The notes under the pieces are model-generated. The model ran no database searches and was not told the DNA's origin. It saw only the letters and a list, made by a program, of their open reading frames with translations. DNA of 64,000 nucleotides, from the sequence record NC_134263.1. The stretch is one strand, 5' to 3'. This document shows positions 29,868 through 43,100 of the stretch, piece by piece; position 1 is the first letter of the stretch, and every line of letters starts with the position of its first letter. The DNA is from Escherichia phage T5_ev219. Made by a program: the position numbers and the translations under genes.

Positions 29868-29942
29868 TGGTGCTCCCACCAGGAATCGAACCCGGTTCAG
29901 ATGCTTACAAGGCAACTGCATCGCCAGCAATGCTTTAGGAGC
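29868..29942 (-). tRNA. tRNA-Thr (TGT)
   Basis: Manual cloverleaf; loop CTTGTAA. Confidence 0.65.
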
Positions 29943-29952
29943 GATAATCCCA

Positions 29953-30117
29953 TTATTTCAACGGGATTTCTTTTTCAATAACAGGAGACTTATCAGTCAT
30001 AACTGTCATTGCCATTTGTTGTAGAAATTCAAAGGTGAAGGCTACACGTTCTTCACCAATCTCTACTTCTACACGTTTCTTTTGTTTATCGATCTTGACT
30101 TTTAGGTTATCAGCCAT
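29953..30117 (-). CDS. small hypothetical protein
   Basis: 54-aa ORF below the track cutoff. Confidence 0.35.
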   Translation of the reverse strand: MADNLKVKIDKQKKRVEVEIGEERVAFTFEFLQQMAMTVMTDKSPVIEKEIPLK

Positions 30118-30361
30118 TAGAGAGTACAGTACTGGTAGTTGGCAATACTACAGATGAAGCAACAGTGTTTAAATGCTTTCTCCAGTCTAGGTTAAATTGT
30201 TTTCGAAACTCTTCATAAGGTTCTTCTGGATAAAAGCTAAAACCTCCTTTCTCGTCATTCAGGATAACAGAGCCGTCAGTTTGTTCGTATGCTCGGTATG
30301 TTTCTCCAATAACAATAATTCGTTTATCGGTACTTTTATTACGAAACTCAAAAACGTGCAT
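30110..30361 (-). CDS. hypothetical protein
   Basis: 83-aa ORF. Confidence 0.45.
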   Translation of the reverse strand: MHVFEFRNKSTDKRIIVIGETYRAYEQTDGSVILNDEKGGFSFYPEEPYEEFRKQFNLDWRKHLNTVASSVVLPTTSTVLSNG

Positions 30362-30377
30362 AATGTTTCCTTAAAGT

Positions 30378-30453
30378 TGGAGCGGCTAGAGGGAATCGAA
30401 CCCTACTCAGCGAGGCTTGGAAGGCCTGCGACACAACCCGTGTGCTTAACCGC
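30378..30453 (-). tRNA. tRNA-Gly (TCC), tentative
   Basis: Manual cloverleaf; good acceptor and T arm; anticodon assignment depends on stem register. Confidence 0.55.
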
Positions 30454-30461
30454 TTATTATT

Positions 30462-30537
30462 TGGCTGGAGAAGGAGGAATCGAACCTACCATTAACGGAG
30501 TCAAAGGCCGTTGTGCTAACCGTTACACTACTCTCCA
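30462..30537 (-). tRNA. tRNA-Gln (TTG)
   Basis: Manual cloverleaf; U1-A72; loop CTTTGAC. Confidence 0.65.
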
Positions 30538-30543
30538 ATAATT

Positions 30544-30619
30544 TGGCTGGGATGCCACGGATCGAACGTGGAACCTTCGGAGTCAGAGGCCGACGATCTG
30601 CCAATTGATCTACATCCCA
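30544..30619 (-). tRNA. tRNA-Gln (CTG)
   Basis: Manual cloverleaf with fully paired arms; loop CTCTGAC. Confidence 0.7.
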
Positions 30620-30632
30620 ATAATTCTTTACT

Positions 30633-30827
30633 CTATGGAAATAGAGTAACTGGCTCAGGTTCTTCAAGGCGCTTACCTTCATGATCTACTCGAATGACTC
30701 CGCATCCTTCGCAAACCACAACTGCACCATAACCTTCTTTGACTTCGGCTTCTGTAATCAGACCAGATAAGTCACCAGTATCTCTGCCCCACATATCAAT
30801 GGAGCATTGTTTGCAGAAATCAGCCAT
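30633..30827 (-). CDS. small Cys-rich protein (zinc-ribbon-like)
   Basis: 64 aa; CKQC...CEGC. Confidence 0.5.
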   Translation of the reverse strand: MADFCKQCSIDMWGRDTGDLSGLITEAEVKEGYGAVVVCEGCGVIRVDHEGKRLEEPEPVTLFP

Positions 30828-30852
30828 AGTTTATTTCCTATTTAAGTTAATT

Positions 30853-30929
30853 TGGGGTGGCTAGTGGAATTCGAATCCACATAGGCCTGATTCACAATCA
30901 GGATCATTAACCAATTATGATATAGCCAC
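30853..30929 (-). tRNA. tRNA-His (GTG)
   Basis: Manual cloverleaf, perfect stems; loop TTGTGAA. Confidence 0.75.
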
Positions 30930-31297
30930 AATTGAAAACTCGCAGGGTTAGCGAAACCATCCTCAATTAGCATGTTCTAGAATACTAATCAAGTTATCTC
31001 CTATTGCACGCAGCTCAAGACGAGTACGAATTTTCAATTGTGGCGGCTCTCAGAAACTCTTCTATTCTAGCCTCAGAAGCTTACCCCCGAACGCATGTCG
31101 GGAAAGTCTTTCCAAGAGCATCAAATAGCACCGTTACACTTTGAGCCATTGATGTATCAAGGAATAGAAGGGCTTGAACCTTCATGAGTTAGACCATTTA
31201 ACTCAACCGCTTTTAAGGTATATTTCTAGGAGTGGATGTTCCTAGTAAACCTATTCGGCAGTCCCGTCTACCAATTCCGGCATATTCCAAGAATTTT

Positions 31298-31471
31298 TTA
31301 TAAACCGGCAGAAGCCTCATTTAAAGCATCAACAATAGCTTCACGCTGGGTCATTCCATACCCGGTGGAGTCTAGGTGAGGCAAATAGGCTGCCCATCCA
31401 TTATCTGTTTCATGAAGGTATGCTTTAAATTTTTTACCATCCTTCATTGTTACAGTAACTGTTTTGCTCAT
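31298..31471 (-). CDS. small protein, HicB-antitoxin-like fold candidate
   Basis: 57-aa ORF with AGGAAT RBS; resemblance weak. Confidence 0.35.
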   Translation of the reverse strand: MSKTVTVTMKDGKKFKAYLHETDNGWAAYLPHLDSTGYGMTQREAIVDALNEASAGL

Positions 31472-31491
31472 AAGGATTCCTTATAGTTAAT

Positions 31492-31581
31492 TGGAGGAAG
31501 GTAATGGAGTCGAACCATCACCGTATCACTACAGCGGGCTAGTTTTCAAGACTAGTTGCGTACCACTACGCCCTACCTTCC
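31492..31581 (-). tRNA. tRNA-Ser (TGA), class II
   Basis: 90 nt; perfect acceptor; loop CTTGAAA; long variable arm. Confidence 0.75.
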
Positions 31582-31588
31582 ATTTGTT

Positions 31589-31679
31589 TGGCGGAAGAGG
31601 AGAGATTTGAACTCTCAAGCCGTTTTACCAGTCAGCCACTTTCCAAGCGGTTTTCGTCGCCAATTCGATTTGCTCTTCC
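31589..31679 (-). tRNA. class II tRNA, probably Ser (GGA)
   Basis: 91 nt; perfect acceptor and T arm; anticodon stem partly paired. Confidence 0.55.
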
Positions 31680-31791
31680 AATAATAAGATGATGCCTCTA
31701 TCATACCAGGCAGTTACGCCTCGCTGGGATTCGAACCCATTAAAACAGCTCAACCGAGATAGTAGGTTTAATTTACTCTGACCATCAAATT

Positions 31792-31868
31792 TGGTGCGTG
31801 ACAAGGGATTCGAACCCTCAAAACCCGACTTCTAAGGACGGTATGTATGCCAATTCCATCAATCACGC
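31792..31868 (-). tRNA. tRNA with TAG anticodon (Leu codon CUA) but short variable loop
   Basis: 77 nt; good acceptor, D, anticodon and T arms; 5-nt variable region. Confidence 0.55.
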
Positions 31869-31873
31869 GTATT

Positions 31874-31952
31874 TGGTGGAGGATAACGAATTCGAATCGT
31901 TCTGATGTCCTCGGTGCAAGCGAGGTGTCCACTCCCAGCAGACCCATCCCCC
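31874..31952 (-). tRNA. tRNA-Ala (TGC)
   Basis: Perfect anticodon stem; loop CTTGCAC. Confidence 0.7.
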
Positions 31953-32238
31953 AAATTCTTTAGTTTACTAAGGCTATTAGCTCGGCGTAACTACAGCACC
32001 TTCGCTTCGAGCGGAAGGAACTGCGTCATCTCGCAAACCCAATACACTATTCAGTTGCCGCTGAATCTAGTGGACTAATCTAGAACTTCTCCCAAATCGT
32101 AGGAATCGTGCTTTTTGGCAGCCAGTCCTAGGTCGAGCTAATACCTTAGTGAACTATGATGAGGATTTCTCCCCATCAATTTATATAAATATTATAACAA
32201 GAAATTAAGCATTAAGCAACTGCGTTTTTTCTTGAAAT

Positions 32239-32317
32239 TGGTAGATCGCCTGGGACTCGAACCCAGAACCTTCCGATTAAAAGTCGGATGCTACTAAACC
32301 TATTGAGCTAGCGACCT
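32239..32317 (-). tRNA. tRNA-Lys (TTT)
   Basis: Perfect anticodon stem; loop CTTTTAA. Confidence 0.7.
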
Positions 32318-32318
32318 A

Positions 32319-32486
32319 TTAGTAACCATTATATACTTCTTTAATAGAGTGGACTTTTAAATAGGGATGATTAGTATTAAACTCTACCATTACTTCATCC
32401 CAATTTTTACCATAATGGGCAAGTAAGGATTTTGATGTATTCTTACCTAAACGTTTGTCACTTACTACTAATCGAAATACTTTCAT
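32319..32486 (-). CDS. small hypothetical protein
   Basis: 55-aa ORF with GAGGAT RBS. Confidence 0.4.
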   Translation of the reverse strand: MKVFRLVVSDKRLGKNTSKSLLAHYGKNWDEVMVEFNTNHPYLKVHSIKEVYNGY

Positions 32487-32506
32487 TTCGAAATCCTCTA
32501 TTAAAA

Positions 32507-32584
32507 TGGAAGCGGGTGCAGGAATCGAACCTACCTCTTTCTAGCTTATGAGACTAGTGATCTCTACCAGAGATCTAACCCGCA
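32507..32584 (-). tRNA. tRNA with CAT anticodon, unpaired 1:72 (initiator-like)
   Basis: Loop CTCATAA; D stem GATC/GATC; U1-U72 mismatch. Confidence 0.6.
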
Positions 32585-32590
32585 ATTGTT

Positions 32591-32669
32591 TGGTCTCCGT
32601 GGGAGGATTTGAACCCCCGACCCTATCGCCCCAAACGAAACGCTCTGACCAAACTGAGCTACACGGAGA
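32591..32669 (-). tRNA. tRNA-Pro (TGG)
   Basis: Perfect acceptor; loop TTTGGGG. Confidence 0.65.
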
Positions 32670-32672
32670 ATA

Positions 32673-32831
32673 TTATTTCTTCAACCACAACAAAGATAAG
32701 CCCAGCATACTAAAGCCGCTAACTAATCCGATACCTTTTTCTTCTATAGTAAAAGTATCTAGATTAAATGCTGTTATAGCTATTGGCATACACCATAATG
32801 CCATAAAAACTTGAGCTATCTTGTGTTTCAT
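32673..32831 (-). CDS. small hydrophobic protein
   Basis: 52-aa ORF with GGAAGG RBS behind a family promoter. Confidence 0.4.
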   Translation of the reverse strand: MKHKIAQVFMALWCMPIAITAFNLDTFTIEEKGIGLVSGFSMLGLSLLWLKK

Positions 32832-33042
32832 TTTGCTTTCCTTCCCTTCACTTTATAAGATATATTATACAGAGAATTAAGCAGAATAGCAAATGAATTT
32901 TTAATAAATTTACTTATTGTGTAGGCCACCTGGAGGCTATGAACCCCACGGCTGACAAAGAAGTTTGCGAGACCTCTCTTAAATGCCAGAATAGACCCGC
33001 CGATCTATCGGAACCTACATAATAAGTAAACTTTATAGTGTC

Positions 33043-33162
33043 ATTCTAGACAGGATTCGAACCTGTTATCACTTGTGCGGACTTACGAGAACCATTCTTT
33101 CACTCGAATCGAACGAGCTTCTGCCCTCGCCAAGTTGGTTTCCCCATCAACCACGCTAGAAT
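33043..33162 (-). other. 120-nt tRNA-like structured element (two T-arm-like hairpins inside a 7-bp closing stem)
   Basis: CTAGAAT/ATTCTAG pair at the ends; internal GGTTCGAATCC-like and TTCGATT hairpins. Confidence 0.3.
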
Positions 33163-33284
33163 GTTTGATTGTTTTCAGTGCAAGAGTCCGAGTCTTGGAC
33201 ACGACCGCTTCGCAAGTACATAGGCAGCTTATCATGAGTCAGCACTTCCGAATTGCTAGCTCCGTGTTCTGCACTGAAATTTTA

Positions 33285-33641
33285 TTAGTTTAACCGTAAA
33301 GTATTATCTACTTCACCATTAATTGTTCGGCATTCCTCTGGGATTGCCGGGGTGGCCTTGTATTCCCACCACTCAGCACCATCATATTCCCCACGTTCTA
33401 GCCAAGTTCCATCGGCAAACCATACATTACCATAAAGTAATTGTCCACCGTATCCAGAATCATATTCAAAGTCTAGGTTATTAAGAAAATCCTCAATATC
33501 TTCTTCTGCATAACCTAAAGGTAATACCCAAACTTTTTTATCCCCATAATACCCGAATTCTATTTTAATACACTTAACTTCAGAATTAGTATTTTTTAAG
33601 GCAAGTAACAGCTCTTCTTTAGCATTACGCATATTACGCAT
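33285..33641 (-). CDS. hypothetical protein
   Basis: Track ORF 33285..33728 trimmed to Met30 because the N-terminal extension runs into tRNA-Asp. Confidence 0.5.
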   Translation of the reverse strand: MRNMRNAKEELLLALKNTNSEVKCIKIEFGYYGDKKVWVLPLGYAEEDIEDFLNNLDFEYDSGYGGQLLYGNVWFADGTWLERGEYDGAEWWEYKATPAIPEECRTINGEVDNTLRLN

Positions 33642-33666
33642 AATATATTCCCATACTGGATTAATT

Positions 33667-33743
33667 TGGCGCGACCGATGGGATTTGAACCCACATTCTC
33701 TCCCGTGACAGGGGAGTACCATTACCAAGCCAGCCCCGGTCGC
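33667..33743 (-). tRNA. tRNA-Asp (GTC)
   Basis: Perfect acceptor; loop CTGTCAC. Confidence 0.75.
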
Positions 33744-33752
33744 ATAATTTAT

Positions 33753-33938
33753 TTACTCAGCTTTGAGTTTTTCAATAGCTGCATTAAGTTCTTTAAGAAA
33801 CTCTTTTCGTACATTAAGACGATTGAGACTTACTAGTATATCATGTTTAAGTTCTTCGATGTATTTCTTTTCAACTTCAATATTGTTGATAGTGCTATCA
33901 CGATGAACTTCTAACTGTGCAATTACATTCTTGGACAT
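33753..33938 (-). CDS. hypothetical coiled-coil protein
   Basis: 61-aa ORF. Confidence 0.4.
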   Translation of the reverse strand: MSKNVIAQLEVHRDSTINNIEVEKKYIEELKHDILVSLNRLNVRKEFLKELNAAIEKLKAE

Positions 33939-34040
33939 GCTTGTTTCCTCAGTTATTAATGAAAATGGTATCTGTGGCTGAATTCGATGTCAGCAATGAT
34001 AGCTGGTTGGCTACCGGTTTACTTAACTCTACACAGAATT

Positions 34041-34118
34041 TGGCGGTTCCTGCTGGATTCGAACCAGCAACCCTCAACTTAACAAGATGCCGCTCTAACC
34101 AATTAGAGCTAAGGAACC
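34041..34118 (-). tRNA. tRNA-Asn (GTT), tentative
   Basis: Perfect acceptor, D and T arms; weak anticodon stem; loop TTGTTAA. Confidence 0.55.
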
Positions 34119-34613
34119 ATATAAGTCAGAACTAGAGTTAATACGTTCTAGATATTTACTAAGATCCCTAGAATTTATACTAAACCACTCATGTTCTTTT
34201 AAATCTTTGAAATACTGGTGAATTAGTTTTTCACCTTTTCGTTTGTCAAACCAAAAAGACCAATGCTCTAACTTATAATCCCTATAAGGGGAATAAGTCT
34301 GATATTGAGCTAATCTCTCTTTTGGATTTTGACTCATACCTATTTTATACTGATTTTTCCATGCAGGATTACTAATACAGTATACAAAACCTTCAGAAAT
34401 AGGAAGTTTATTTTCCTGCTTAAACTTTATAAAGGAAAGTGCAGCAAGTTTTCTCGAATACATAGTATTTGTATTCTTTTTGGTATTACCATTGGTTCCT
34501 GAAAGATTTATATATTCTTCCATAAATCTCTGGATTAGTTCTGCGGTTATATAGAAGGGCTCATTAGTAACAACGCCTTTCTTTACCAAACTATCAAAAA
34601 CTTTTGTATGCAC
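34095..34613 (-). CDS. GIY-YIG-like domain protein
   Basis: 172 aa; GFVYCISNP...YKIGMSQNP..R pattern; last 7 codons and stop overlap the 5' end of tRNA-Asn. Confidence 0.55.
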   Translation of the reverse strand: MHTKVFDSLVKKGVVTNEPFYITAELIQRFMEEYINLSGTNGNTKKNTNTMYSRKLAALSFIKFKQENKLPISEGFVYCISNPAWKNQYKIGMSQNPKERLAQYQTYSPYRDYKLEHWSFWFDKRKGEKLIHQYFKDLKEHEWFSINSRDLSKYLERINSSSDLYGSLALIG

Positions 34614-34633
34614 TACTTCTTTCCTTTAGTAAT

Positions 34634-34709
34634 TTGGACGACCGCATGAGATTTGAACTCACATAAAAAGGATTTGCAATCCTTCGCCTAAGCCATTCAG
34701 CCAACGGTC
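34634..34709 (-). tRNA. tRNA-Cys (GCA)
   Basis: Loop TGCAAAT. Confidence 0.65.
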
Positions 34710-34897
34710 GATTTATCTTGTTTTTCGAGATCTTCAAATTCTAAATCATTGAAGTTCCCTAGAGTACGGGAGTAGAACCCGTCTCCTGCGTCATAGCCTG
34801 ATTTGCCACAATCACACATTTTAAATTCACGAAGATGTGTGAAAATATGCTCAGAACCACAACACTTAAATCTAACTAATCGTTTCATTAGTTTCAT
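34697..34897 (-). CDS. small zinc-ribbon-like protein
   Basis: 66 aa; CCGSEH...CDCG; 3' end overlaps tRNA-Cys 5' end. Confidence 0.45.
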   Translation of the reverse strand: MKLMKRLVRFKCCGSEHIFTHLREFKMCDCGKSGYDAGDGFYSRTLGNFNDLEFEDLEKQDKSTVG

Positions 34898-34946
34898 TAG
34901 CTTCTCCAGTTCAATTTATATAATTATTATATAGAACTTTTGGAAA

Positions 34947-35231
34947 CTAAGCAACTACATTTTTTAAGAATTTGATGTCTTTCTTCTTCTTATATTTCCA
35001 CGTTAATGGATTCTGTCGATTGTGAACGCTTGAGATCTTCGTCTCGTCAAAGTTCTTCAATATCATGTAATCACAAGATAATTGTTCTAATGGAATGTGA
35101 TCACCGTCAAAAGCATATACATAAGGCTGTTGACTAGCACGATAATGATAGACTTTGTTAATTCTACGTTTCAGCGACTTATCAGCGCAGTAAATAAAGA
35201 AGTTTTCAGGATGCATCAGCATCTCCTTCAA
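34947..35231 (-). CDS. hypothetical protein
   Basis: 94-aa ORF. Confidence 0.45.
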   Translation of the reverse strand: MKEMLMHPENFFIYCADKSLKRRINKVYHYRASQQPYVYAFDGDHIPLEQLSCDYMILKNFDETKISSVHNRQNPLTWKYKKKKDIKFLKNVVA

Positions 35232-35233
35232 TT

Positions 35234-35308
35234 TGGTGCACCCTGTTCGTATCGAACGAACCTCTCAAGCTCTTCAGGCAAGCGCTAATCCATCTCAGCT
35301 AAAGGTGC
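35234..35308 (-). tRNA. tRNA-Phe (GAA), tentative
   Basis: Good acceptor and T arm; loop CTGAAGA; partial anticodon stem. Confidence 0.55.
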
Positions 35309-35315
35309 AAATTTT

Positions 35316-35391
35316 GGCAAACCTACTAGGACTCGAACCTAGACCGTACGGTTTTGGAGACCGACATGCTGTCCAGTAACACTCTAGGAAT
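35316..35391 (-). tRNA. tRNA-like, Trp (CCA) anticodon arm but unpaired acceptor stem (possible pseudogene)
   Basis: Good D, anticodon and T arms and 3' CCA; 5' and 3' acceptor strands not complementary. Confidence 0.35.
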
Positions 35392-35399
35392 GCAGAAAT

Positions 35400-35476
35400 T
35401 GGCGTCCTGTGCGGGGATCGAACCCGCAAATCCTACCTTGAAAGGGTAGTGACTTTACCAGTTTGTCTAACAGGAC
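35400..35476 (-). tRNA. tRNA-Glu (TTC)
   Basis: Perfect acceptor and anticodon stems; loop CTTTCAA. Confidence 0.7.
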
Positions 35477-35483
35477 TTAAATT

Positions 35484-35574
35484 TGGTGTTGGATGATGGA
35501 GTCGAACCACCCGAGACCCTTCCGAGTCGGCAGATTTACAGTCTGCTTCGCTACCTCTACGATACTAATCCAAC
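35484..35574 (-). tRNA. tRNA-Tyr (GTA), class II
   Basis: 91 nt; perfect acceptor; anticodon stem GCAGA/TCTGC; loop CTGTAAA. Confidence 0.7.
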
Positions 35575-35702
35575 ATATTTAAAAGTATTCAAATACTAGT
35601 TTAAACACTTTTAAATATGTTTCCGAATTAGATAACTATTATACCAAGTTTTAAGGCACTGAGCAAGTCAAATTTTAAAGAACTTGCTCAGTGCTGTATT
35701 AG

Positions 35703-35978
35703 TTAGTCGAACTTAGGAGTGACAGTTAAGGAGAACGGAAGTTCGAAAACTTCTTCGCCCTCATTACTAACGGTAACTACACGACCTTTAAGTTCAGACA
35801 TTAAAATATCAATATCAGCTTTTGCATCTGGAGCCATGCCAGCTTCAATACATTTAGCTTTAACTTCCGGTAAAAGCTCTACGTTATAGAGATAGAGCCA
35901 CTCAATCTCACCTTCCCAGTCTTCCCAGGATTTGCAGATTGCACTTTCAATACCAGTTGCTACAACACGATTTTGCAT
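35703..35978 (-). CDS. hypothetical protein
   Basis: 91-aa ORF behind a family promoter. Confidence 0.5.
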   Translation of the reverse strand: MQNRVVATGIESAICKSWEDWEGEIEWLYLYNVELLPEVKAKCIEAGMAPDAKADIDILMSELKGRVVTVSNEGEEVFELPFSLTVTPKFD

Positions 35979-36068
35979 TAATTAACTCCTTCATCAATTT
36001 ATATAACTATTATACCAGAAATTTAAAGTAAAAGGCAAGTACATTTTTAAAAATTCTGTTTGGAGGAG

Positions 36069-36275
36069 CTAAACTCCAGATTTTTCGGCCAAGTCTAGAC
36101 TAATAAGAGTTATAGCCATAATTGCTGCACCGTGTTCTTTTTCTCCGGTGTTTTTAGCAGAGTCTATAATATCCTTAATCTGTTCGTAATAACTTTTTAC
36201 TTCTTGTTCAATGCCTGCCTCGGCTATCATGCCTTTAGCCATGAATCGTTGCATGGTAATTTCAGGATTAGCCAT
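36069..36275 (-). CDS. hypothetical protein
   Basis: 68-aa ORF. Confidence 0.45.
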   Translation of the reverse strand: MANPEITMQRFMAKGMIAEAGIEQEVKSYYEQIKDIIDSAKNTGEKEHGAAIMAITLISLDLAEKSGV

Positions 36276-36450
36276 GTTGTTTCTCCAGTTTCATTTTTAA
36301 TAGTTTACAGATGAAATCAACGTCTTCATCTGTGCCTAAGTCTCTATCCTCAAGGGTCGCCTTGAAGTTTTTCGTCAATTCCATGAGGATGATTTCCCTA
36401 GAACGACGTGTTGGCGGAGGTGGATGTCTATACATCTTATTTCCTTAATT

Positions 36451-36527
36451 TGGTAGGGGTGGTGGGATTCGAACCCACAAAACCTGAATTTTAAGTCCAG
36501 TACCTATGCCAATTCGATTACACCCCC
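36451..36527 (-). tRNA. tRNA with TAA anticodon (Leu codon UUA) but short variable loop
   Basis: 77 nt; good acceptor, anticodon and T arms; D-loop AATTGGCATA shared with 31792..31868. Confidence 0.55.
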
Positions 36528-36628
36528 GTGTAATCAGTTTATTAGTTGATACATATTATAGCCTAAAGAAAACCCTACTACTAATCCTACTAACCAACCA
36601 ATATAATAATCTTTTAATTTCACGGGTG

Positions 36629-36814
36629 TCAACCTCGTTCAATATCTAGAGAAATACCACAGGTAGGATTAATGCCTGTGCCTTTGCACGTCGGACAAAC
36701 CCAGATATTACAGAATGTATCCCCTGCTTCTGCATCAGAACTTTCTCCAACTCCTAGACAGTCAGGACAGGCACATTCTTCTAGCTCTTGCTTGAGTTCT
36801 TGAAACTTAGACAT
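36629..36814 (-). CDS. small zinc-ribbon protein
   Basis: 61 aa; CACPDC...CPTCKG. Confidence 0.5.
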   Translation of the reverse strand: MSKFQELKQELEECACPDCLGVGESSDAEAGDTFCNIWVCPTCKGTGINPTCGISLDIERG

Positions 36815-36823
36815 ATAGTTTCC

Positions 36824-37012
36824 TTATTCAATTACTTTTGAGGCTTCAAGGGAGTCGATATAGTGTACGTTTTCTACCATAATCATATAATCTGCCACTT
36901 TATCCATAGCCTGAGCTTCAGAGGTAGCCCTGGCTAACCTATATCCTTTTTTATATTCATCCGGGTATTCCCTATCTGGAATAAACACAACATAAACTAG
37001 GTATAGTTCCAC
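36824..37012 (-). CDS. hypothetical protein
   Basis: 62-aa ORF. Confidence 0.4.
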   Translation of the reverse strand: MELYLVYVVFIPDREYPDEYKKGYRLARATSEAQAMDKVADYMIMVENVHYIDSLEASKVIE

Positions 37013-37033
37013 TTGTAACCCCTCTAATTAAAC

Positions 37034-37111
37034 TGGTGGCTCCCCGAGGATTCGAACCTACGTACCTTCCGGTTATGAGCCGGGTGCTCATACCATATGA
37101 GCTTGAGAACC
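37034..37111 (-). tRNA. tRNA with CAT anticodon, E. coli fMet-like anticodon arm
   Basis: Anticodon arm CCGG-CTCATAA-CCGG; D stem GCTC/GAGC; weak T stem. Confidence 0.5.
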
Positions 37112-37117
37112 AGAATT

Positions 37118-37206
37118 TGGCGGAAGAAGTGGGAATCGAACCCACAAGGCTATATTTCAAACCGACAGATTAGCAATCTGCTGCAATACCGTTATGCTAT
37201 TCTTCC
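37118..37206 (-). tRNA. tRNA-Ser (GCT), class II
   Basis: 89 nt; perfect acceptor; loop TTGCTAA. Confidence 0.65.
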
Positions 37207-37310
37207 GAATTTATAAGATATATTATATTAGAAATTTAGCTTCATAGCAAGAAAATTTTTCAAGTTTTCGGTAGACATCTCATCCACATCTACAGGAGAA
37301 ACAAATCCAT

Positions 37311-37745
37311 TTAATTGTCTAGCAAATTTTCACCAGCAGGATCATTATCCCCAACAGCTACCAATTTAAAAGGTAATAATTTCAGTTGCTTTAATAACGC
37401 TTTTCCTGGAGAAGAACCCAACATTGCTAGGGCTGGATAACCAGCGTTATGTAACGCAACTGCCTTAAATACAGATTCAGCGATCAATACTACTTTTTCA
37501 TCTCCATTGAGAGTTTCTAGTCCCCATACACACTGGGTAGTAGAATAAGTAAAATATTTAGCTTCAAAGGGACACTTACCATGACCTTTTGGAGCAGAAG
37601 GATTATAAGTTTGATAGCCCCTCAACATCCCAGAGAAGTCATACAACGGGACTGTTAGCCATCCTTCCGGACTTAACCAGCAATGATATTTTTCTGTATC
37701 AAATCCTCTAGATAAGAGGTGCTGTGTTAGCTCATCAACATTCAT
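37311..37745 (-). CDS. Toprim-domain protein (primase-like C-terminal fragment)
   Basis: Track ORF trimmed to Met18 because Met1 lies inside the promoter; LIAESV...ALHNAG...AMLGSS...VGDNDPAG resembles DnaG Toprim motifs. Confidence 0.45.
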   Translation of the reverse strand: MNVDELTQHLLSRGFDTEKYHCWLSPEGWLTVPLYDFSGMLRGYQTYNPSAPKGHGKCPFEAKYFTYSTTQCVWGLETLNGDEKVVLIAESVFKAVALHNAGYPALAMLGSSPGKALLKQLKLLPFKLVAVGDNDPAGENLLDN

Positions 37746-37920
37746 ATCTGGTTCCTCTCTCAAATTTATAGATATATTATACAGAGAATTTAGCATTCAA
37801 GCAATCAAATTTTTTAACTTTTTAGAGGAAAATCATAGGGCACTTAAGGGCAGCAGATAAGTGGTGAGGACCAAAATTTGTGACCCCACTAAAAATCCGG
37901 GGGCAATTTTTAAAGACCCT

Positions 37921-37949
37921 TTGACATTTTCGCCGGGGTAGTGTAAAGT
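37921..37949 (+). promoter_or_regulatory. sigma70-like promoter for the plus-strand cassette
   Basis: TTGACA, 17-bp spacer, TAAAGT. Confidence 0.45.
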
Positions 37950-38011
37950 ATATGTTATGGATGAGTGATCAAAGAGACACACATTTTCTATATACTAGGA
38001 GGTGTCAAAAA

Positions 38012-38992
38012 ATGACAGAAGAAGTAGCTAAGAGTCCTGAGACCGTCGCTAGCGTAGCAGCAGAACTGCATCGTCACGAGGAATCAGATAAGAAAAAGTG
38101 GGAGAAGGTCAGAGCCTACGAAGAAGAACATCGTGAACACGATGATAAAGATGAAGAAGATGACGATGATGTACGTTGTCATAAATATGGAAAATATAAA
38201 ATGCAAGAACCAGTAAACGTATTTACTAACGGCTTCCCTGGCATGGGTGCATTCCCAGCTAACGCAAGTGCTTTCGGTGGAGAAGGTATGGGTCTATTCG
38301 GAGCTATCCTAATCGGTGCTCTATTAACCGGCGGATTTGGTGGTTTTGGTGGTTTTGGTCGTGGTGCTGGCGTTGCCGCTGAAGGAACCGCTGTGGACGC
38401 GATCCTTTCTAACCAGGATACTGCAAGTATTCTAGCTGCAATCAATACTACTCGTACAGAAGCTAACCAGGGCACTGGGGCTGTTCTAAGTGCAGTAAAC
38501 GGTGTGGGAGCTGCTCAAGCTGCTAGCACTCAGCAAGTTCTGACTACTATCTACGGTACAGGTGCTAATCTGTCAAACCAGATCTGTGCTGAAACTCGTA
38601 ACGTTATTCAGGGTCAGTTCGATCTTTCTCGTCAGATGGATCAATCTTTCGCTGCTAACCAGATAGCACGTGCTCAAGATAAGTTTGACTCTGCTCAGAT
38701 TGCTTTCCAGCAGTCTATTCAGACCAACAACCAGTTTGCCGCTGTTCAGGCTCAGATGTGCGCTAACCAGAACGCTATCGAACGTCAGCTTGCTGAATGT
38801 TGCTGTGAGCTTCAGACTGCGATCGCTGGTGTAACTACTGCACGTATCCAGGACGAACTGAATGAATGCCGTCTGCGCGAAGCAATCGCTGCAGGTAGCG
38901 GTGCAAATGGTCAGGTAATCAACCAAATCGCTGTAAGTCTTGGTGCTATCACTCAGACTCTGGCTGGTCTGCAGGCTAAACTGCCGGCTTAA
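38012..38992 (+). CDS. Gly/Ala/Gln/Asn-rich low-complexity protein with central hydrophobic Gly-rich segment
   Basis: Track ORF trimmed to MTEEVAK with AGGAGG RBS; acidic N-terminus, GMGLFGAILIGALLTGGFGGFGGFG segment, Q/A/N-rich C-terminus with ECCCEL. Confidence 0.6.
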   Translation: MTEEVAKSPETVASVAAELHRHEESDKKKWEKVRAYEEEHREHDDKDEEDDDDVRCHKYGKYKMQEPVNVFTNGFPGMGAFPANASAFGGEGMGLFGAILIGALLTGGFGGFGGFGRGAGVAAEGTAVDAILSNQDTASILAAINTTRTEANQGTGAVLSAVNGVGAAQAASTQQVLTTIYGTGANLSNQICAETRNVIQGQFDLSRQMDQSFAANQIARAQDKFDSAQIAFQQSIQTNNQFAAVQAQMCANQNAIERQLAECCCELQTAIAGVTTARIQDELNECRLREAIAAGSGANGQVINQIAVSLGAITQTLAGLQAKLPA

Positions 38993-39013
38993 AATTAAGG
39001 GGAGGAGCCCATT

Positions 39014-39430
39014 ATGAGTAAATATGGTTTTGTGAACAACGGATTTAATCAACCAATGGGCTCCCAGCAGCCCGTTCCGGGTCTGGATAATCCTTACCTA
39101 CAACAGTTGCAACAGCGTTTAGCAGAAGCGCAACAGATGCAGCAACAACTCCAGCAAAACCCTGGAAGTGTGAGTCCTATGCAAATGATGCAGCAAATGA
39201 GCGGGCAGTCGCAAATGCCTCAACAAATGCATCAACAGGTGACTCAGCAGCAAGTTCAGCAGCAAACCCAACAACCGCAGGTTTCTGCGGAAGGACAGGC
39301 AGTACTAGCCCTTTTCGAAGACTTCGCAAAGACAGAGGATGGGAAGCAGCTTGTATCACTTATGGGTAAGTTTAATAGCTTCTGCCAAAGCCAAATTGCA
39401 AAAGCTCAAAATAGCGGTAATAACTCCTAA
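39014..39430 (+). CDS. glutamine-rich low-complexity protein
   Basis: 138 aa; GGGAGG RBS; poly-Q/QQ-rich middle. Confidence 0.55.
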   Translation: MSKYGFVNNGFNQPMGSQQPVPGLDNPYLQQLQQRLAEAQQMQQQLQQNPGSVSPMQMMQQMSGQSQMPQQMHQQVTQQQVQQQTQQPQVSAEGQAVLALFEDFAKTEDGKQLVSLMGKFNSFCQSQIAKAQNSGNNS

Positions 39431-39439
39431 GGAGGAATT

Positions 39440-39634
39440 ATGTGTTGCAGAAAATCTGTTTCGTGCTGCCCAATGCCTGTAGCACGTTGTTGCTCTCCAG
39501 CAATGTTTACGCAAATACCGGCGTTCAATCCGTTTGCCTTTAAGCCTACTCTTATCCTGCCCCCTAGAGTAGATTTTCAGTCAAGATTGGCCTCCCGTAT
39601 GGGTGGTTGCTGTAACAAGAGTATATGGTTCTAA
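39440..39634 (+). CDS. Cys-rich small protein with four CC doublets
   Basis: 64 aa; AAGGAGG RBS; MCCRK..SCCP..RCCSP...GGCCNK. Confidence 0.5.
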   Translation: MCCRKSVSCCPMPVARCCSPAMFTQIPAFNPFAFKPTLILPPRVDFQSRLASRMGGCCNKSIWF

Positions 39635-39649
39635 GGAACCAAACAATAA

Positions 39650-39686
39650 AGCCCCTAGTCGAAAGACTTAGGGGCTTTTCTTTTAT
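39650..39686 (+). terminator. rho-independent terminator of the plus-strand cassette
   Basis: GC-rich hairpin followed by TTTTCTTTT. Confidence 0.7.
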
Positions 39687-39687
39687 C

Positions 39688-39735
39688 TTAAATACAGAAA
39701 AGCCCTGCGCTCTCCAGGGAACGCAGGGCTTACTT
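39688..39735 (-). terminator. rho-independent terminator downstream of SPFH gene
   Basis: 8-bp stem gccctgcg/cgcagggc then U-run on minus strand. Confidence 0.65.
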
Positions 39736-39754
39736 CGAATATTACGTGTGGGTA

Positions 39755-40702
39755 TTACTTGTTACGCATATCCATAATCATCTGGCCATCGTAACCAGTG
39801 CCAACCACAGTCTGCGGTACGCCACCTTGATATTTCTGAGCACGAATCATCTCAACTTCCAGTTGTTTCCAACGAATCATCTCAGGAGTAATGGTACGTT
39901 GCAGTGCGGCGTTAGCTTCAGCTTCTTTCTTAGCTGCGTACAGTTTAGCATCTGCGTCACGTTCATTAGCGATAGCTTGGTTGTTGCGAGCTTCACGATC
40001 TGCTTCTGCTTGTTTAACTTTTTGCTGTGCTTCCTGTTCAACACGAGCTAATTCAGCTTTAGCAGCATTAACCTGTTCTTCACGAACTTTGGTATTCTGT
40101 ACCTGTTCCATGATTACCGGTGGCAAAGTAATATCCTGAAGGAATACCTGCTTAACTGTGTAACCATATGGGCGTGCATACTCTTCAACTTCCTGTTGAA
40201 TTGCAGTTTGCAATTGAGCCTGAATTTTAGCATCAAACAAATCTTGTGCTTTAGGTACAGACTTACCAAACTCACGAATAGTAGACAGTAATTTTTCAGT
40301 TACATACTTGTCTAGTGCCTGATCCTGAGTACCTGCATTAATACGGTTAATCGGTGCCTTAGAACCATCAAACTGCAACATAACAGTCAGGTCAACAGTG
40401 GATTTAAACTTATCCTGACTAGGAACCTGAAGTTTATCTAATTTTACAGCAATATCTTTTGTACTGAAAGTATCGAAAGATGCAAACGGGTTTACAATAT
40501 GGAAACCAGGTAATACTGGATTAGGGTCTACTTTACCCAGGAATGTTTGAGTTTTAACCGTACCATCAGAAACAATAGTATATGAATTAAAAGCTAGGAT
40601 TAAACCTGCTAAACCAACTACAGCACCAATCCCCCAACGTTTAATAGTACGAATTACTTTCTGCTCAGAAGTTAGTTCTTTCATATTTTTAGTATTAAAC
40701 AT
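39755..40702 (-). CDS. SPFH/band-7 (prohibitin/HflC-like) membrane protein
   Basis: 315 aa; N-terminal TM, SPFH-like core, long Ala/Glu/Gln-rich coiled-coil tail; AAGGAA RBS. Confidence 0.65.
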   Translation of the reverse strand: MFNTKNMKELTSEQKVIRTIKRWGIGAVVGLAGLILAFNSYTIVSDGTVKTQTFLGKVDPNPVLPGFHIVNPFASFDTFSTKDIAVKLDKLQVPSQDKFKSTVDLTVMLQFDGSKAPINRINAGTQDQALDKYVTEKLLSTIREFGKSVPKAQDLFDAKIQAQLQTAIQQEVEEYARPYGYTVKQVFLQDITLPPVIMEQVQNTKVREEQVNAAKAELARVEQEAQQKVKQAEADREARNNQAIANERDADAKLYAAKKEAEANAALQRTITPEMIRWKQLEVEMIRAQKYQGGVPQTVVGTGYDGQMIMDMRNK

Positions 40703-40736
40703 ATATTTCCTTTGTTTTAGTTACAGTTAATAAAAT

Positions 40737-40811
40737 TGGCCGAGGTGACAGGATTCGAACCTGCATAAAGGAATTTAGAAGACTCCTGCCTCTCCCTTAG
40801 ACTACACCCCG
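40737..40811 (-). tRNA. tRNA-Arg (TCT)
   Basis: Anticodon stem GGAGT/ATTCC; loop CTTCTAA; CCA encoded. Confidence 0.65.
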
Positions 40812-41313
40812 TTTAAGTATTTTTAAGAACTCTCGTAAAAACTCTTAAAAATACAGACGATACCGGGAGAGTCATAAGTCTCACTCATTAAGTATTTCAA
40901 GACAAAATACAGTAACGTCTATTATTTTCCAGTTTAAGTCAGGGTGACTTAGTGGTTATGTCCTGCGGTATATTGAGGACTCGGTTAGGCTTGGGGTCAT
41001 GACTTCCCGCCTTTTGCTGCTACTCAACAGGAGTTATCGCGAATTACCTGTGCTATTGTGCACCATTAGTGACATCTCTCATGTCAGCATTTCCCACTTT
41101 GTGGATAGCTTGAAAAACTACTCCGATATGGAGAAAGAACTTCACTATCCTAGAATACCTTCTAAAGTTCTTCTTTAGCCTGGACATAGTTAAATCGTAA
41201 TAAAACTATTCAGCAGACTGGTTGGTTAGTCTGGAACCAACTACCGCGTGGTTTAGGCAGTGCGCAACTAACCTCGGAAGCTTTTACGTTAAAAGCATCA
41301 GTTATCCAGTTCT

Positions 41314-41385
41314 TACCGACCGTAGGATTCGAACCTACATCTTCCACCAGTTACGGCTTGGTAATACCAATTATACTAGGACGGC
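41314..41385 (-). tRNA. tRNA-like element (no encoded CCA; possible pseudogene)
   Basis: T arm GTAGG-TTCGAAT-CCTAC; acceptor with one mismatch; non-canonical anticodon loop. Confidence 0.3.
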
Positions 41386-41645
41386 AGTGTTACTACATAA
41401 GTGATTTCCACACCCCACTATTTATAAATTAGAGAAGAGTTTAGGGGAGAGGTTTCAGACGCCCCATTTTACACGTTCTAGCCACTAACCGGGATTGCCG
41501 CCCCCTGTGTACTAGTTTTCCAACTAACCCACCGACTCTATTCAATGCGCTCCGGTTGGGATTCTGCACTCAGCGTAATCGGCTCGCTGTTCTCTAATTT
41601 ATGAATATATTATACAGAATTTATAGGCATTTAGCAAATAAATTT

Positions 41646-42089
41646 TTAATTAAATTCGCCAGCAATCTGAGCAGCAGTACCACCATCATAACGCCCAGGA
41701 AATTCTTCCTTAATCGCTTTCATCAGCATACCTTTTGTAATTCCAGGGTTTAGCTTAACTAATTCTGCAAAGTATTTACGAATCTCAGTATCAGATAACT
41801 GAGGAGGCAGATACTCCTGCAACCACTTATTTAGAATGTATTCATACTGAGCGGACTGCAAGCTATAACTATCAAGATCTTGACCATGAAGTTTAGCTTT
41901 CATCTGGTTAATGCTTTTTAGTTGAGCTTTGAGATAAGACACAAATTGTTCAGAAGTGATGAAATCTTTATCAATACGCTGAAGATCCCCGATTATGGTC
42001 TGATAGCTTTTAGCGACTTCTTTATCAGAACCATTAAACTTAGAATCCTGCAAAGCTCTACGCAAAACATCTAAAATATTCTCTTCCAT
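41646..42089 (-). CDS. GatB/YqeY-domain protein
   Basis: 147 aa; C-terminal GITKGMLMKAIKEEFPGRYDGGTAAQIAGEF resembles YqeY C-terminus. Confidence 0.5.
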   Translation of the reverse strand: MEENILDVLRRALQDSKFNGSDKEVAKSYQTIIGDLQRIDKDFITSEQFVSYLKAQLKSINQMKAKLHGQDLDSYSLQSAQYEYILNKWLQEYLPPQLSDTEIRKYFAELVKLNPGITKGMLMKAIKEEFPGRYDGGTAAQIAGEFN

Positions 42090-42260
42090 TATTTCATTCC
42101 TAACGCTTGGTTAAAAGATTGTTCTGTCATAACTGCTGAGACTTTGGCGAAATCAAACTTTTTAGGGTTCGTAGTGATCTCAGCAACGTTGGAAGTTTTA
42201 ACAGTTTTCGTAGTACGAATACCGCGAGTATTAACACCAATAATTACAACTGATTTCATA
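42090..42260 (-). CDS. small hypothetical protein
   Basis: 56-aa ORF; stop overlaps downstream start (TAATG). Confidence 0.4.
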
Positions 42261-42327
42261 TTTCGCTTCCTCTCATTAATTTATGAAAGTATTATACAGA
42301 AGTTTAAGTATTTAAGCAAATAAATTT

Positions 42328-42795
42328 TTAAGTTTTAGTGACAACAGGCTTATAAAATGTATGTCCCTTAATCTTAGTTGTTTTCTTAAACTTCTTTGTC
42401 CAGTATGGTTTATCTTTACCACTATGGAAGTATAAAGCTCCATGTGTAGGATCTTGTGGTAAATCAACGTAGTATATCACTCTAGCTAAATTCTTGGCGG
42501 TTTGCCAAGCCTCATCAGTTTTATCAACTTTTGGTCTCTTAGATACCCAAGAGAACTGGTTAGACTGATATACTACTTTACAGTAGGAATCTGGGAATTT
42601 ACCGGAGTTTACACGGTTTTTAGTAACATGTGCAATCGCCGTCATTCCCTTTATGCCCTCACCACGACTTTCGAAATAGATATTTTTAGCAATGCAATCT
42701 ATTTCTTTTGCATCGTGCGATGCCTGACTACTAAAGCTGAAGGTAAGGGCAGCTACTAAAAGCAAAGCTGCCTTCATTCTTTTTACTCCTGCCAA
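42328..42795 (-). CDS. secreted cell-wall hydrolase, SleB/CwlJ-like
   Basis: 155 aa; N-terminal signal peptide; CIAKNIYFESRGE...AIAHVTKNR...GALYFH pattern. Confidence 0.6.
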   Translation of the reverse strand: MAGVKRMKAALLLVAALTFSFSSQASHDAKEIDCIAKNIYFESRGEGIKGMTAIAHVTKNRVNSGKFPDSYCKVVYQSNQFSWVSKRPKVDKTDEAWQTAKNLARVIYYVDLPQDPTHGALYFHSGKDKPYWTKKFKKTTKIKGHTFYKPVVTKT

Positions 42796-43100
42796 TCATA
42801 TTCAACACGATTGGGATTTTCTTTATACCCTAAGTCAAGCAAATCATTACGCATAGTTTGCTTAGCTACGGGATTCGAGGTTACTAGTACCACTTTCTTT
42901 GGTCTCTGCCCAAATTCTAAGAGTAAACGAAGAATTTGATAACCTTCCATACCATCTACAGCCAAGTCATTATCCATATAAACAAAGTGGCCTGTGGTAT
43001 CAGTTTTATTCAGAAACTCGACAGCGGCTTCTGGGGTTCGAATGATAATGTCCATTCCGTGAAGATTACGCACATCATCAATCAAAATATGAAAAGTCAT
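42783..43100 (-). CDS. stand-alone CheY-like receiver-domain protein
   Basis: 105 aa; ILIDDV acidic pair, YMDNDLAVDGMEG phospho-acceptor region, VVLVTS, downstream Lys. Confidence 0.5.
   Translation of the reverse strand: MTFHILIDDVRNLHGMDIIIRTPEAAVEFLNKTDTTGHFVYMDNDLAVDGMEGYQILRLLLEFGQRPKKVVLVTSNPVAKQTMRNDLLDLGYKENPNRVEYDWQE

What the first reader, a model, noticed from the sequence alone, without database searches (positions are those of the whole stretch)
41646..42089. GatB/YqeY-domain protein near the tRNA genes
YqeY-like domains are tRNA-associated in bacteria; a phage copy close to a large tRNA cluster suggests a role in tRNA use or modification.
Basis: inference. Interest (0 to 1): 0.35.

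Follow-up and report, generated by a model that had tools for sequence, protein, structure and literature searches.

The report
Stand-alone YqeY protein of T5-like phage
The gene is real and encodes a small helper-type protein of the YqeY family (ortholog of phage T5 gene T5.081) beside transfer-RNA genes; it is already in the databases, it is not an enzyme, and its job is still unknown.

Summary
Observation confirmed. Window 41646..42089 (- strand) is a 147-aa ORF in a T5-like phage (Tequintavirus, about 99% identical to published genomes). It is the ortholog of T5.081.

YqeY membership is secure:
- Pfam YqeY scores just under threshold (25.4 vs 27 bits).
- A profile of the phage family links to bona fide YqeY proteins at 99.9% hhalign probability.

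The protein has no GatB catalytic domain, so the common label 'tRNA amidotransferase' is over-annotation.

The tRNA interpretation is partly supported. In 34 other phage loci, 14 have a tRNA within 2 kb, and tRNA density falls six-fold with distance from the gene. But 7 of 9 annotated phages from other lineages have no tRNA within 10 kb, although several carry tRNA-repair or processing genes nearby. No function has been shown for any free YqeY.

The most likely role is a non-enzymatic tRNA/RNA-binding accessory.

Extra observations:
- A phage-type G-x-Y-D-G-K signature.
- The gene is a sharp divergence island (50% aa identity to T5 inside 90-100% identical flanks).

Already known; modest interest.

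The parts
41646..42089 (-). YqeY-family CDS (147 aa plus stop), ortholog of T5.081
41805..42089 (-). N-terminal helical domain (codons 1-95); hypervariable between T5-like phages
   Evidence: 30-49% aa identity between allele classes. 38-50% nt identity to T5 inside 90-100% identical flanks. Helices 5-18, 23-39, 46-66, 77-93 in the model.
41649..41804 (-). C-terminal three-helix bundle (codons 96-147), equivalent of YqeY-C / the GatB tail. Carries the G120-x-x-M123...G132-R-Y134-D-G136 motif.
   Evidence: 67-87% aa identity between allele classes. The Pfam match covers residues 90-142. Motif aligned to 1ng6 MGKVMGAIMPKVKGKADG. Helices 100-113, 119-129, 136-145.
42089..42259 (-). 56-aa DUF7616 gene (T5.082 homolog). 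Its stop codon overlaps the yqeY start (TAATG), so the two are probably translationally coupled.
   Evidence: Pfam DUF7616 E=4.7e-33; sequence.
42291..42319 (-). Sigma-70 promoter (-35 TTGCTT, 17-nt spacer, -10 TATAAT, A/T-rich upstream), equivalent of T5 promoter P-D/E 33. Drives DUF7616-yqeY.
   Evidence: Sequence; T5 annotation.
41609..41637 (-). Sigma-70 promoter (TTGCTA-17-TATAAT) starting 9 nt after the yqeY stop, equivalent of T5 promoter P16-17. Drives RNAX and tRNA-Arg.
40812..41600 (-). RNAX-like non-coding region (T5 'stable RNA with unknown functions'), containing a tRNA-like element at 41313..41386
   Evidence: T5, DT57C and BF23 annotation. About 95% nt identity to T5 apart from two indels. 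Rfam tRNA 37.9 bits. ARAGORN 'Ser(act)'.
40737..40811 (-). tRNA-Arg(UCU)
42783..43100 (-). First gene of the transcription unit: cREC (cyclic-phosphate-processing receiver-like) domain protein, T5.084 homolog
   Evidence: Pfam PF20274 E=1.4e-14. The family is predicted, not shown, to act in RNA repair or ADPr processing (PMC7824862, PMC9503650).
42328..42777 (-). SleB-type cell wall hydrolase (T5.083 homolog)
   Evidence: Pfam Hydrolase_2 E=2.4e-25. The same hydrolase-yqeY adjacency is seen in a distant metagenomic relative.
29239..37206 (-). Main cluster of 21 tRNA genes, same strand

Best explanation
The ORF encodes a stand-alone YqeY-family protein, the ortholog of T5.081. It has two all-helical domains: a variable N-terminal domain and a conserved C-terminal three-helix bundle homologous to the tRNA-binding tail of GatB.

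It is an early gene. It is transcribed with the DUF7616 gene from a strong sigma-70 promoter. No terminator is predicted before the RNAX / tRNA-Arg unit that follows it.

It is not an amidotransferase, because it has no catalytic domain and its enterobacterial hosts make Gln-tRNA and Asn-tRNA directly.

Most likely (inferred, not shown) it is a non-enzymatic RNA-binding accessory. It would use the conserved C-terminal pocket (G120, M123, G132, Y134, D135, G136) to contact the elbow or D-loop region of tRNAs. In that role it would assist the charging, maturation, repair or protection of phage-encoded and host tRNAs, in a host reported to lack yqeY.

Confidence in the identity is about 0.97. Confidence in the tRNA-accessory mechanism is about 0.35-0.4. 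The figure given is for the whole statement.
For: Identity.

Purifying selection.

Transcription context.

tRNA link by homology:
- The GatB/GatE tail binds the tRNA D-loop through a hydrophobic pocket (V449, M452, G457, A459, P461) (PMC2811023).
- The equivalent motif is the most conserved part of the phage protein.
- The YqeY domain raises the tRNA affinity of D. radiodurans GlnRS (PMC1865053).

tRNA link by context:
- yqeY lies inside or flush with tRNA clusters in Ralstonia phage RSP15, Vibrio phage Hades, two metagenomic lineages and 12 of the 23 non-redundant IMG/VR contigs found with a motif pattern. pf16 gp65 shows the same (PMC5587285).
- tRNA density is 0.68/kb within 500 nt and falls to 0.11/kb at 5-10 kb.
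- Where tRNA genes are absent, neighbours include tRNA nucleotidyltransferase, peptidyl-tRNA hydrolase, RNA ligases and a ribosome hibernation factor.
- The window's own transcription unit starts with a cREC gene.

Against: - No free YqeY has a demonstrated function.
- In the only biochemical test, the isolated YqeY domain bound tRNA very weakly and did not work in trans (PMC1865053).
- The protein is mildly acidic (pI 5.5; C-domain pI 6.8). It lacks the Lys-rich KXGKXK motif and extra helix of GatB that add tRNA affinity.
- 7 of 9 annotated phages of other lineages have no tRNA within 10 kb of yqeY.
- All YqeY-positive complete phage genomes listed are 100 kb or larger, where tRNA genes are common anyway.
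- The loci in the density analysis are not phylogenetically independent, and no control gene was run.
Confidence: 0.4

Rival explanations
1. Ribosome- or translation-initiation-associated factor. Like bacterial YqeY, which is usually encoded with ribosomal protein bS21, it acts on the 30S subunit or on mRNA selection rather than on tRNA, and so biases translation towards phage messages.
For: The yqeY-rpsU operon linkage is widespread and co-regulated (PMC1865053; PMC13374519). In Yersinia phage fHe-Yen9-04 a ribosome hibernation factor gene lies 2.3 kb upstream of yqeY.
Against: No bS21 gene lies next to the phage yqeY, either here or in the 9 annotated phages examined. The recurrent neighbours are tRNA genes and tRNA-processing enzymes. 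No ribosome binding by YqeY has been published.
Confidence: 0.18
2. Binder of another structured RNA, or a protein-protein adaptor. The helical fold is used to hold the adjacent stable RNA of unknown function (RNAX) or a host protein. The hypervariable N-terminal domain would track a variable partner.
Against: RNAX is about 95% identical between the window and T5 while their YqeY N-domains share only 35% aa identity, so the two do not co-vary. Most other phage lineages with yqeY have no RNAX. The conserved part of the protein is the GatB-tail-like domain.
Confidence: 0.15
3. Counter-defence factor. It shields tRNAs from host anticodon nucleases or similar tRNA-targeting immunity, or acts as a decoy for them. 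This would explain both the tRNA linkage and the allelic diversity.
For: Linkage to tRNA clusters, and to RNA-repair-type genes (cREC, RNA ligases, Pth, Nudix/macro) in several phages. Deeply diverged alleles are exchanged inside a conserved backbone, as is seen for many conflict genes.
Against: Purely contextual. There is no PADLOC match, and no known anti-defence homolog appeared in the searches run. The elevated synonymous divergence points to recombination of old alleles rather than demonstrable positive selection. Within an allele class, dN/dS is low.
Confidence: 0.12
4. Genuine subunit of a tRNA-dependent amidotransferase, as the label 'tRNA amidotransferase' in RefSeq and PHROGs implies.
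For: Only the name of PHROG 1460 and the propagated annotations.
Against: The protein is 147 aa with no match to the GatB catalytic (GatB_N) or GatB_Yqey models, even at E<=10. The fold equals stand-alone YqeY. E. coli and Salmonella use GlnRS and AsnRS and have no GatCAB (established knowledge). No GatA or GatC appears in the annotated T5 region examined.
Confidence: 0.02

Closest known systems
Bacterial stand-alone YqeY (Pfam PF09424, COG1610; structures 1NG6 B. subtilis, 8XJE C. jejuni, 8XJG V. parahaemolyticus)
   Different: - Encoded by a virulent phage, with no rpsU (bS21) neighbour.
- Tyr replaces the Ala/Val of the bacterial K-G-K-A-D-G motif, giving a phage-type G-x-Y-D-G-K signature.
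- Only 13-22% identity to the crystal structures.
- The single-sequence Pfam score is just under the gathering threshold.
T5.081 and its homologs in Demerecviridae (PHROG 1460)
   Same: Same position and gene order (cREC - SleB hydrolase - DUF7616 - yqeY - RNAX - tRNA-Arg - SPFH lipoprotein) and the same promoters. 100% identical protein in several published phages.
   Different: The window carries the 147-aa allele, only 50% identical to T5's 144-aa allele although the flanks are 90-100% identical.
C-terminal helical + tail domains of GatB/GatE, and the YqeY appendix of D. radiodurans GlnRS
   Same: Homologous helical bundle. The pocket-forming motif that contacts the tRNA D-loop is the best conserved part (PMC2811023, PMC1865053).
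   Different: - No catalytic cradle domain.
- No Lys-rich KXGKXK motif and no extra helix alpha14.
- Free-standing, so it would have to act in trans. The GlnRS YqeY domain could not do so.
Other phage YqeY genes (pf16 gp65, Aeh1 ORF245c, phiCbK gp150, RSP15 ORF100, Vibrio phage 2.275.O gp360)
   Same: Same subfamily signature. Large phage genomes (all listed complete genomes are 100 kb or more). Often sit in tRNA or tRNA-repair neighbourhoods.
   Different: 25-41% identity. tRNA adjacency is present in only some of them.

Membership tests
YqeY (PF09424 / COG1610) | Significant match to the family profile | tested here: met
   A single sequence gives 25.4 bits, E=1.7e-5, against a gathering score of 27, so it is formally just below. 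14 of 24 close homologs and 45 of 52 profile-search relatives match PF09424, best 3.5e-27. hhalign of the T5-like profile against the intermediate group gives 99.9%, E=1.5e-33 over 144 columns. That group hits PDB YqeY at 3e-21.
YqeY (PF09424 / COG1610) | Stand-alone protein of about 145-150 aa with an N-terminal helical domain plus a C-terminal three-helix bundle | tested here: met
YqeY (PF09424 / COG1610) | Conserved C-terminal motif G-x-x-M-x(8)-G-x-[AV]-D-G | tested here: inconclusive
   G120, M123, G132, D135 and G136 are present, but Tyr134 replaces Ala/Val. This is a subfamily signature shared with other phage YqeYs.
YqeY (PF09424 / COG1610) | Operon linkage with rpsU (bS21); typical of the family but not defining | tested here: not met
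   Neighbours are DUF7616, SleB hydrolase, cREC, RNAX and tRNA-Arg.
GatB subunit of tRNA-dependent amidotransferase | N-terminal catalytic cradle domain (GatB_N) and the GatB_Yqey helical/tail module in a protein of about 475 aa | tested here: not met
   The protein is 147 aa, and no GatB_N or GatB_Yqey match appears even at E<=10.
GatB subunit of tRNA-dependent amidotransferase | Lys-rich KXGKXK motif and helix alpha14 in the tail domain | tested here: not met
   The loop between helices 100-113 and 119-129 is LNPGITKG, with no extra helix. Motif definition from PMC2811023.
GatB subunit of tRNA-dependent amidotransferase | Partner subunits GatA and GatC, and transamidation activity | not tested
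   None is annotated in the 22 kb of T5 examined. The whole window was not scanned for GatA/GatC, and activity cannot be tested here.
tRNA-binding protein (functional class) | Direct binding to tRNA | not testable with these tools
   Only homology and gene context are available.

The most novel reading that the evidence does not exclude
The phage-type YqeY proteins (G-x-Y-D-G-K signature) form a distinct, largely viral subfamily of trans-acting tRNA-elbow binders. They belong to a phage 'tRNA maintenance' toolkit together with phage tRNAs, CCA-adding enzyme, peptidyl-tRNA hydrolase, RNA ligases and cREC. In T5-like phages the variable N-terminal domain is an exchangeable cassette that tracks a variable host partner or defence. 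If so, T5.081 would give the first tractable phenotype for the long-orphan YqeY family.
Probability: 0.2. Interest if true: 0.6.

Novelty: already known. Interest (0 to 1): 0.3.

Why it matters
YqeY is a widespread protein family (bacteria, mitochondria, large phages) with crystal structures since 2003 and still no assigned function. A virulent, genetically tractable phage that brings its own YqeY into a host reported to lack one (E. coli) is a convenient system for finding that function.

The gene itself, however, is already catalogued (T5.081, PHROG 1460). Some GenBank records already label it YqeY-like, and its proximity to tRNA genes has been remarked on before for phage pf16.

The practical gains are two. 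First, the labels 'tRNA amidotransferase' and 'recombination related exonuclease' should not be trusted. Second, the tRNA linkage is a real statistical tendency but is not universal.

Tried and rejected
- NCBIfam gave no match, and PADLOC gave none for YqeY, cREC or DUF7616.
- The search for related loci with the diverse alignments A2 and A3 failed because they are too divergent. I replaced it with a degenerate DNA pattern for M-K-x2-K-x2-Y-x-G-x-Y-D-G-K-x-A, which returned 25 IMG/VR loci.
- Literature searches for T5.081 or 'tRNA amidotransferase' in T5-like phages found nothing functional. The 2024 structural paper on the C. jejuni and V. parahaemolyticus YqeY proteins is not in the library.
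- Amidotransferase reading: rejected, because there is no catalytic domain.
- Spurious ORF: rejected, because dN/dS is 0.05-0.13 and the protein is conserved in more than 450 genomes.
- Positive selection as the cause of the divergent N-domain: not supported. Synonymous divergence across the whole gene is also near or beyond saturation (about 1 in the C-domain, not computable in the N-domain) while neighbours have dS 0.07-0.25, so exchange of old alleles is the better reading.
- Specific link to tRNA-Gln or tRNA-Asn, as for GatB: the nearest tRNAs differ from locus to locus (Leu, Val, Phe, Cys, Arg, Asn, Trp, Thr), so no specificity is visible.
- The 148-nt segment of the RNAX region that T5 lacks (41442..41592) folds no better than shuffles (z=0.39) and has no Rfam match above noise.

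Full report
**What the window is**

The 3 kb around the finding is 98-99% identical to many published T5-like phages (Salmonella phage MET_P1_100_107, VSe12, Escherichia phages OSYSP and ESCO40), all genus Tequintavirus, family Demerecviridae. The window carries 23 tRNA or tRNA-like genes at 29239..41386, all on the - strand.

**The observation**

A 147-aa ATG-to-stop ORF lies exactly at 41646..42089 on the - strand.
- Its start overlaps the stop of an upstream 56-aa ORF (TAATG).
- That upstream ORF is preceded by a strong sigma-70 promoter: TTGCTT at 42319-42314, a 17-nt spacer, then TATAAT at 42296-42291. It corresponds to T5 promoter P-D/E 33.
- The gene is the positional and sequence ortholog of T5.081.
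- GenBank records call it 'YqeY-like protein', 'GatB domain containing protein', 'tRNA amidotransferase', 'recombination related exonuclease' or 'hypothetical protein'.

The gene is under purifying selection. dN/dS is 0.05-0.13 against phages carrying the same allele class, similar to or lower than the neighbouring genes.

**Is it a YqeY protein?**

- The single sequence matches Pfam PF09424 at E=1.7e-5 and 25.4 bits, just under the 27-bit cut-off, and only over residues 90-142.
- It matches PHROG 1460 at 3e-47. NCBIfam gives nothing.
- A profile of 24 T5-like homologs (A1) puts B. subtilis YqeY (1NG6) first in the PDB, collinear over residues 15-139 (E=0.0023).
- The same profile, searched against 1.8 billion representative proteins, finds 792 proteins at E<=1e-3. 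Nearly all are 135-155 aa and match over their full length.
- 45 of 52 sampled proteins hit PF09424, best 3.5e-27.
- hhalign between the T5-like profile and 38 of these more distant proteins gives 99.9% probability, E=1.5e-33, over 144 aligned columns.
- That distant group hits the three solved YqeY structures at 3e-21, 4e-19 and 1e-16.
- The AlphaFold2 model (pLDDT 89.2, eight helices) finds only YqeY structures at the top of Foldseek.

Membership of the YqeY family is therefore secure.

**What it is not**

There is no match to the GatB catalytic domain or to the GatB_Yqey model, even at E<=10. The protein is one third the length of GatB. Its C-terminal bundle has three helices, without the extra helix and Lys-rich motif that characterise GatB tails. 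The hosts use GlnRS and AsnRS directly (established knowledge). 'tRNA amidotransferase' is an over-annotation, and 'recombination related exonuclease' has no support at all.

**Anatomy and conservation**

- Among divergent T5-like alleles the C-terminal domain (residues 96-147) keeps 67-87% identity. The N-terminal 95 residues keep only 30-49%.
- Positions nearly invariant across the wider family are R/K17, P95, G120, M123, K127, Y134, D135, G136 and A139.
- The stretch G120..M123..G132-R-Y134-D135-G136 aligns with B. subtilis M-G-K-V-M...K-G-K-A-D-G. [quoted passage not shown]
- The phage proteins and their metagenomic relatives carry an almost invariant Tyr where the three crystallised bacterial YqeYs have Ala or Val. 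This gives a G-x-Y-D-G-K signature for a phage-type subfamily.
- The protein is mildly acidic (pI 5.5).

**Does the tRNA neighbourhood mean anything?**

I looked at yqeY homologs outside the Tequintavirus/Epseptimavirus group.

Nine annotated phages of different lineages:
- Two have yqeY flush with or inside a large tRNA cluster: Ralstonia RSP15 (19 tRNAs, the last 669 nt upstream) and Vibrio phage Hades (embedded among 23 tRNAs).
- Seven have no tRNA within 10 kb: Pseudomonas 30-2, Vibrio 2.275.O, Caulobacter phiCbK, Aeromonas Aeh1, Yersinia fHe-Yen9-04, Sinorhizobium phiN3 and Escherichia phage muut.
- Four of those seven carry tRNA or translation maintenance genes close by:
  - Vibrio 2.275.O: tRNA nucleotidyltransferase and peptidyl-tRNA hydrolase.
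  - fHe-Yen9-04: tRNA nucleotidyltransferase 750 nt upstream, a ribosome hibernation factor and an RNA ligase.
  - phiN3: aminoacyl-tRNA hydrolase and an RNA ligase.
  - Aeh1: RNA ligase 2.

Metagenomic and IMG/VR loci:
- Two metagenomic representatives sit in tRNA clusters, with a tRNA 12 nt and 250 nt from the gene.
- A degenerate DNA pattern for the subfamily motif retrieved 25 IMG/VR stretches. 13 of them contain tRNAs, always on the yqeY strand.

Pooling 34 non-redundant loci:
- 14 have a tRNA within 2 kb and 16 within 5 kb.
- tRNA density falls from 0.68 per kb within 500 nt to 0.11 per kb at 5-10 kb.

So the linkage is a real and recurrent tendency, but it is not universal. The loci are not phylogenetically independent, I ran no control gene, and every YqeY-positive complete genome listed is 100 kb or larger. 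The pf16 authors noted the same adjacency (PMC5587285).

**Local context in the window**

All genes below are on the - strand.
- The transcription unit begins with a promoter at 43159-43131.
- It then encodes, in order:
  - a cREC-domain protein (PF20274, E=1.4e-14). This family is predicted, but not shown, to resolve 2',3'-cyclic phosphates in RNA repair or ADP-ribose derivatives (PMC7824862 and PMC9503650);
  - a SleB-type cell wall hydrolase;
  - DUF7616;
  - YqeY.
- Nine nucleotides after the yqeY stop comes a promoter equivalent to T5 P16-17 (41637-41609).
- Next is the about 800-nt RNAX region ('stable RNA with unknown functions' in T5, DT57C and BF23). It holds a tRNA-like element at 41313..41386.
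- Then come tRNA-Arg(UCU) and an SPFH lipoprotein gene.
- No terminator is predicted between yqeY and RNAX.

**Mechanism**

What is established for the fold:
- The GatB/GatE tail is needed for tRNA binding and is placed on the D-loop (PMC2811023).
- The YqeY appendix of D. radiodurans GlnRS lowers Km and raises kcat for tRNA-Gln. It does so only in cis, and the free domain binds tRNA very weakly (PMC1865053).
- Bacterial yqeY is usually co-operonic and co-regulated with rpsU.
- There is preliminary evidence for binding to OLE RNA.
- The fungal homolog is a structural bridge in complex I.
- yqeY is described as absent from E. coli.

From this and the context, I consider a non-enzymatic tRNA-directed accessory role the most likely (about 0.35-0.4). 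The alternatives are ribosome-linked, other-RNA or adaptor, and counter-defence roles. None of these is shown.

**Unexpected feature: a divergence island**

- Between the window and T5 the flanking DNA is 90-100% identical. Identity drops to 38-50% across the N-terminal two thirds of yqeY and to 82-83% across its C-terminal third. The boundaries are sharp and fall at the gene ends.
- The proteins are 50% identical.
- Synonymous divergence across the whole gene is about 1 or saturated, against 0.07-0.25 in the adjacent genes.
- At least three allele classes exist: 333 phage records at 80% identity or more to the window protein (329 of them at 90% or more), 5 at 60-80% and 118 below 60%.
- The classes do not follow host. 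T5 (an E. coli phage) and Salmonella phage Shivani are both about 50% identical to the window protein.
- This looks like exchange of old alleles within a conserved backbone. The reason is unknown.

**Verdict**

The gene and its family are already catalogued, and the functional inference is reasonable but unproven. Interest is modest.

Noticed in passing
window 41646..42089 compared with T5 (L003 11618..12052): The yqeY gene is a sharp divergence island. Flanks are 90-100% nt identical to T5. The N-terminal 95 codons are 38-50% nt (35% aa) identical and the C-terminal domain 82% nt identical. Synonymous divergence is about 1 or saturated, against 0.07-0.25 in the neighbours. At least three allele classes circulate among T5-like phages.
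   Followed up: partly
window 40812..41600 (- strand): An ORF-poor stretch of about 800 nt that corresponds to T5 'RNAX', a stable RNA of unknown function with its own strong promoter (41637-41609). It is about 95% identical to T5 apart from a 148-nt segment present here (and in BF23 and Salmonella phage 5) and an 87-nt segment present only in T5.
   Followed up: partly
window 41313..41386 (- strand): A tRNA-like element inside RNAX. ARAGORN calls it tRNA-Ser with the unusual anticodon ACT, and Rfam tRNA scores 37.9 bits. Other records annotate it as tRNA-OTHER, tRNA-Ser-ACT or tRNA-SeC(tca). It is probably a tRNA-like or pseudo-tRNA rather than a decoding tRNA.
   Followed up: no
window 42783..43100 (- strand): A 105-aa protein (T5.084 homolog) with a cREC 'cyclic-phosphate processing receiver' domain (PF20274, E=1.4e-14). 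The family is predicted to act in RNA repair or ADP-ribose-derivative processing and is experimentally uncharacterised. It is the first gene of the unit that contains yqeY.
   Followed up: partly
window 42089..42259 (- strand): A 56-aa DUF7616 protein (E=4.7e-33), translationally coupled to yqeY (TAATG overlap) and 93-100% identical between the window, T5 and DT57C although yqeY is not. Function unknown.
   Followed up: no
window 42328..42777 (- strand); L004 435..872: A SleB-type cell wall hydrolase (Hydrolase_2) lies just upstream of yqeY. RefSeq labels it 'endolysin'. The hydrolase-yqeY adjacency is kept in a distant metagenomic relative.
   Followed up: no
public annotations of this gene: Many GenBank, UniRef and RefSeq records call this protein 'recombination related exonuclease' or 'tRNA amidotransferase'. 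Neither label is supported by the sequence, and both look like propagated annotation errors.
   Followed up: yes
L014 1..3241; L015 2100..2565; L027; L031: In metagenomic and IMG/VR phage contigs, yqeY genes sit 12-25 nt from tRNA genes inside dense tRNA arrays. One example is five tRNAs (Cys plus four Leu isoacceptors) 250 nt downstream. All are on the same strand, which suggests co-transcription.
   Followed up: partly
window 37311..37796 (- strand): A 161-aa ORF (T5.076 homolog, labelled 'DNA primase') has only a weak Toprim_2 match (E=0.0017, below threshold). It lies directly next to tRNA-Ser(GCU).
   Followed up: no
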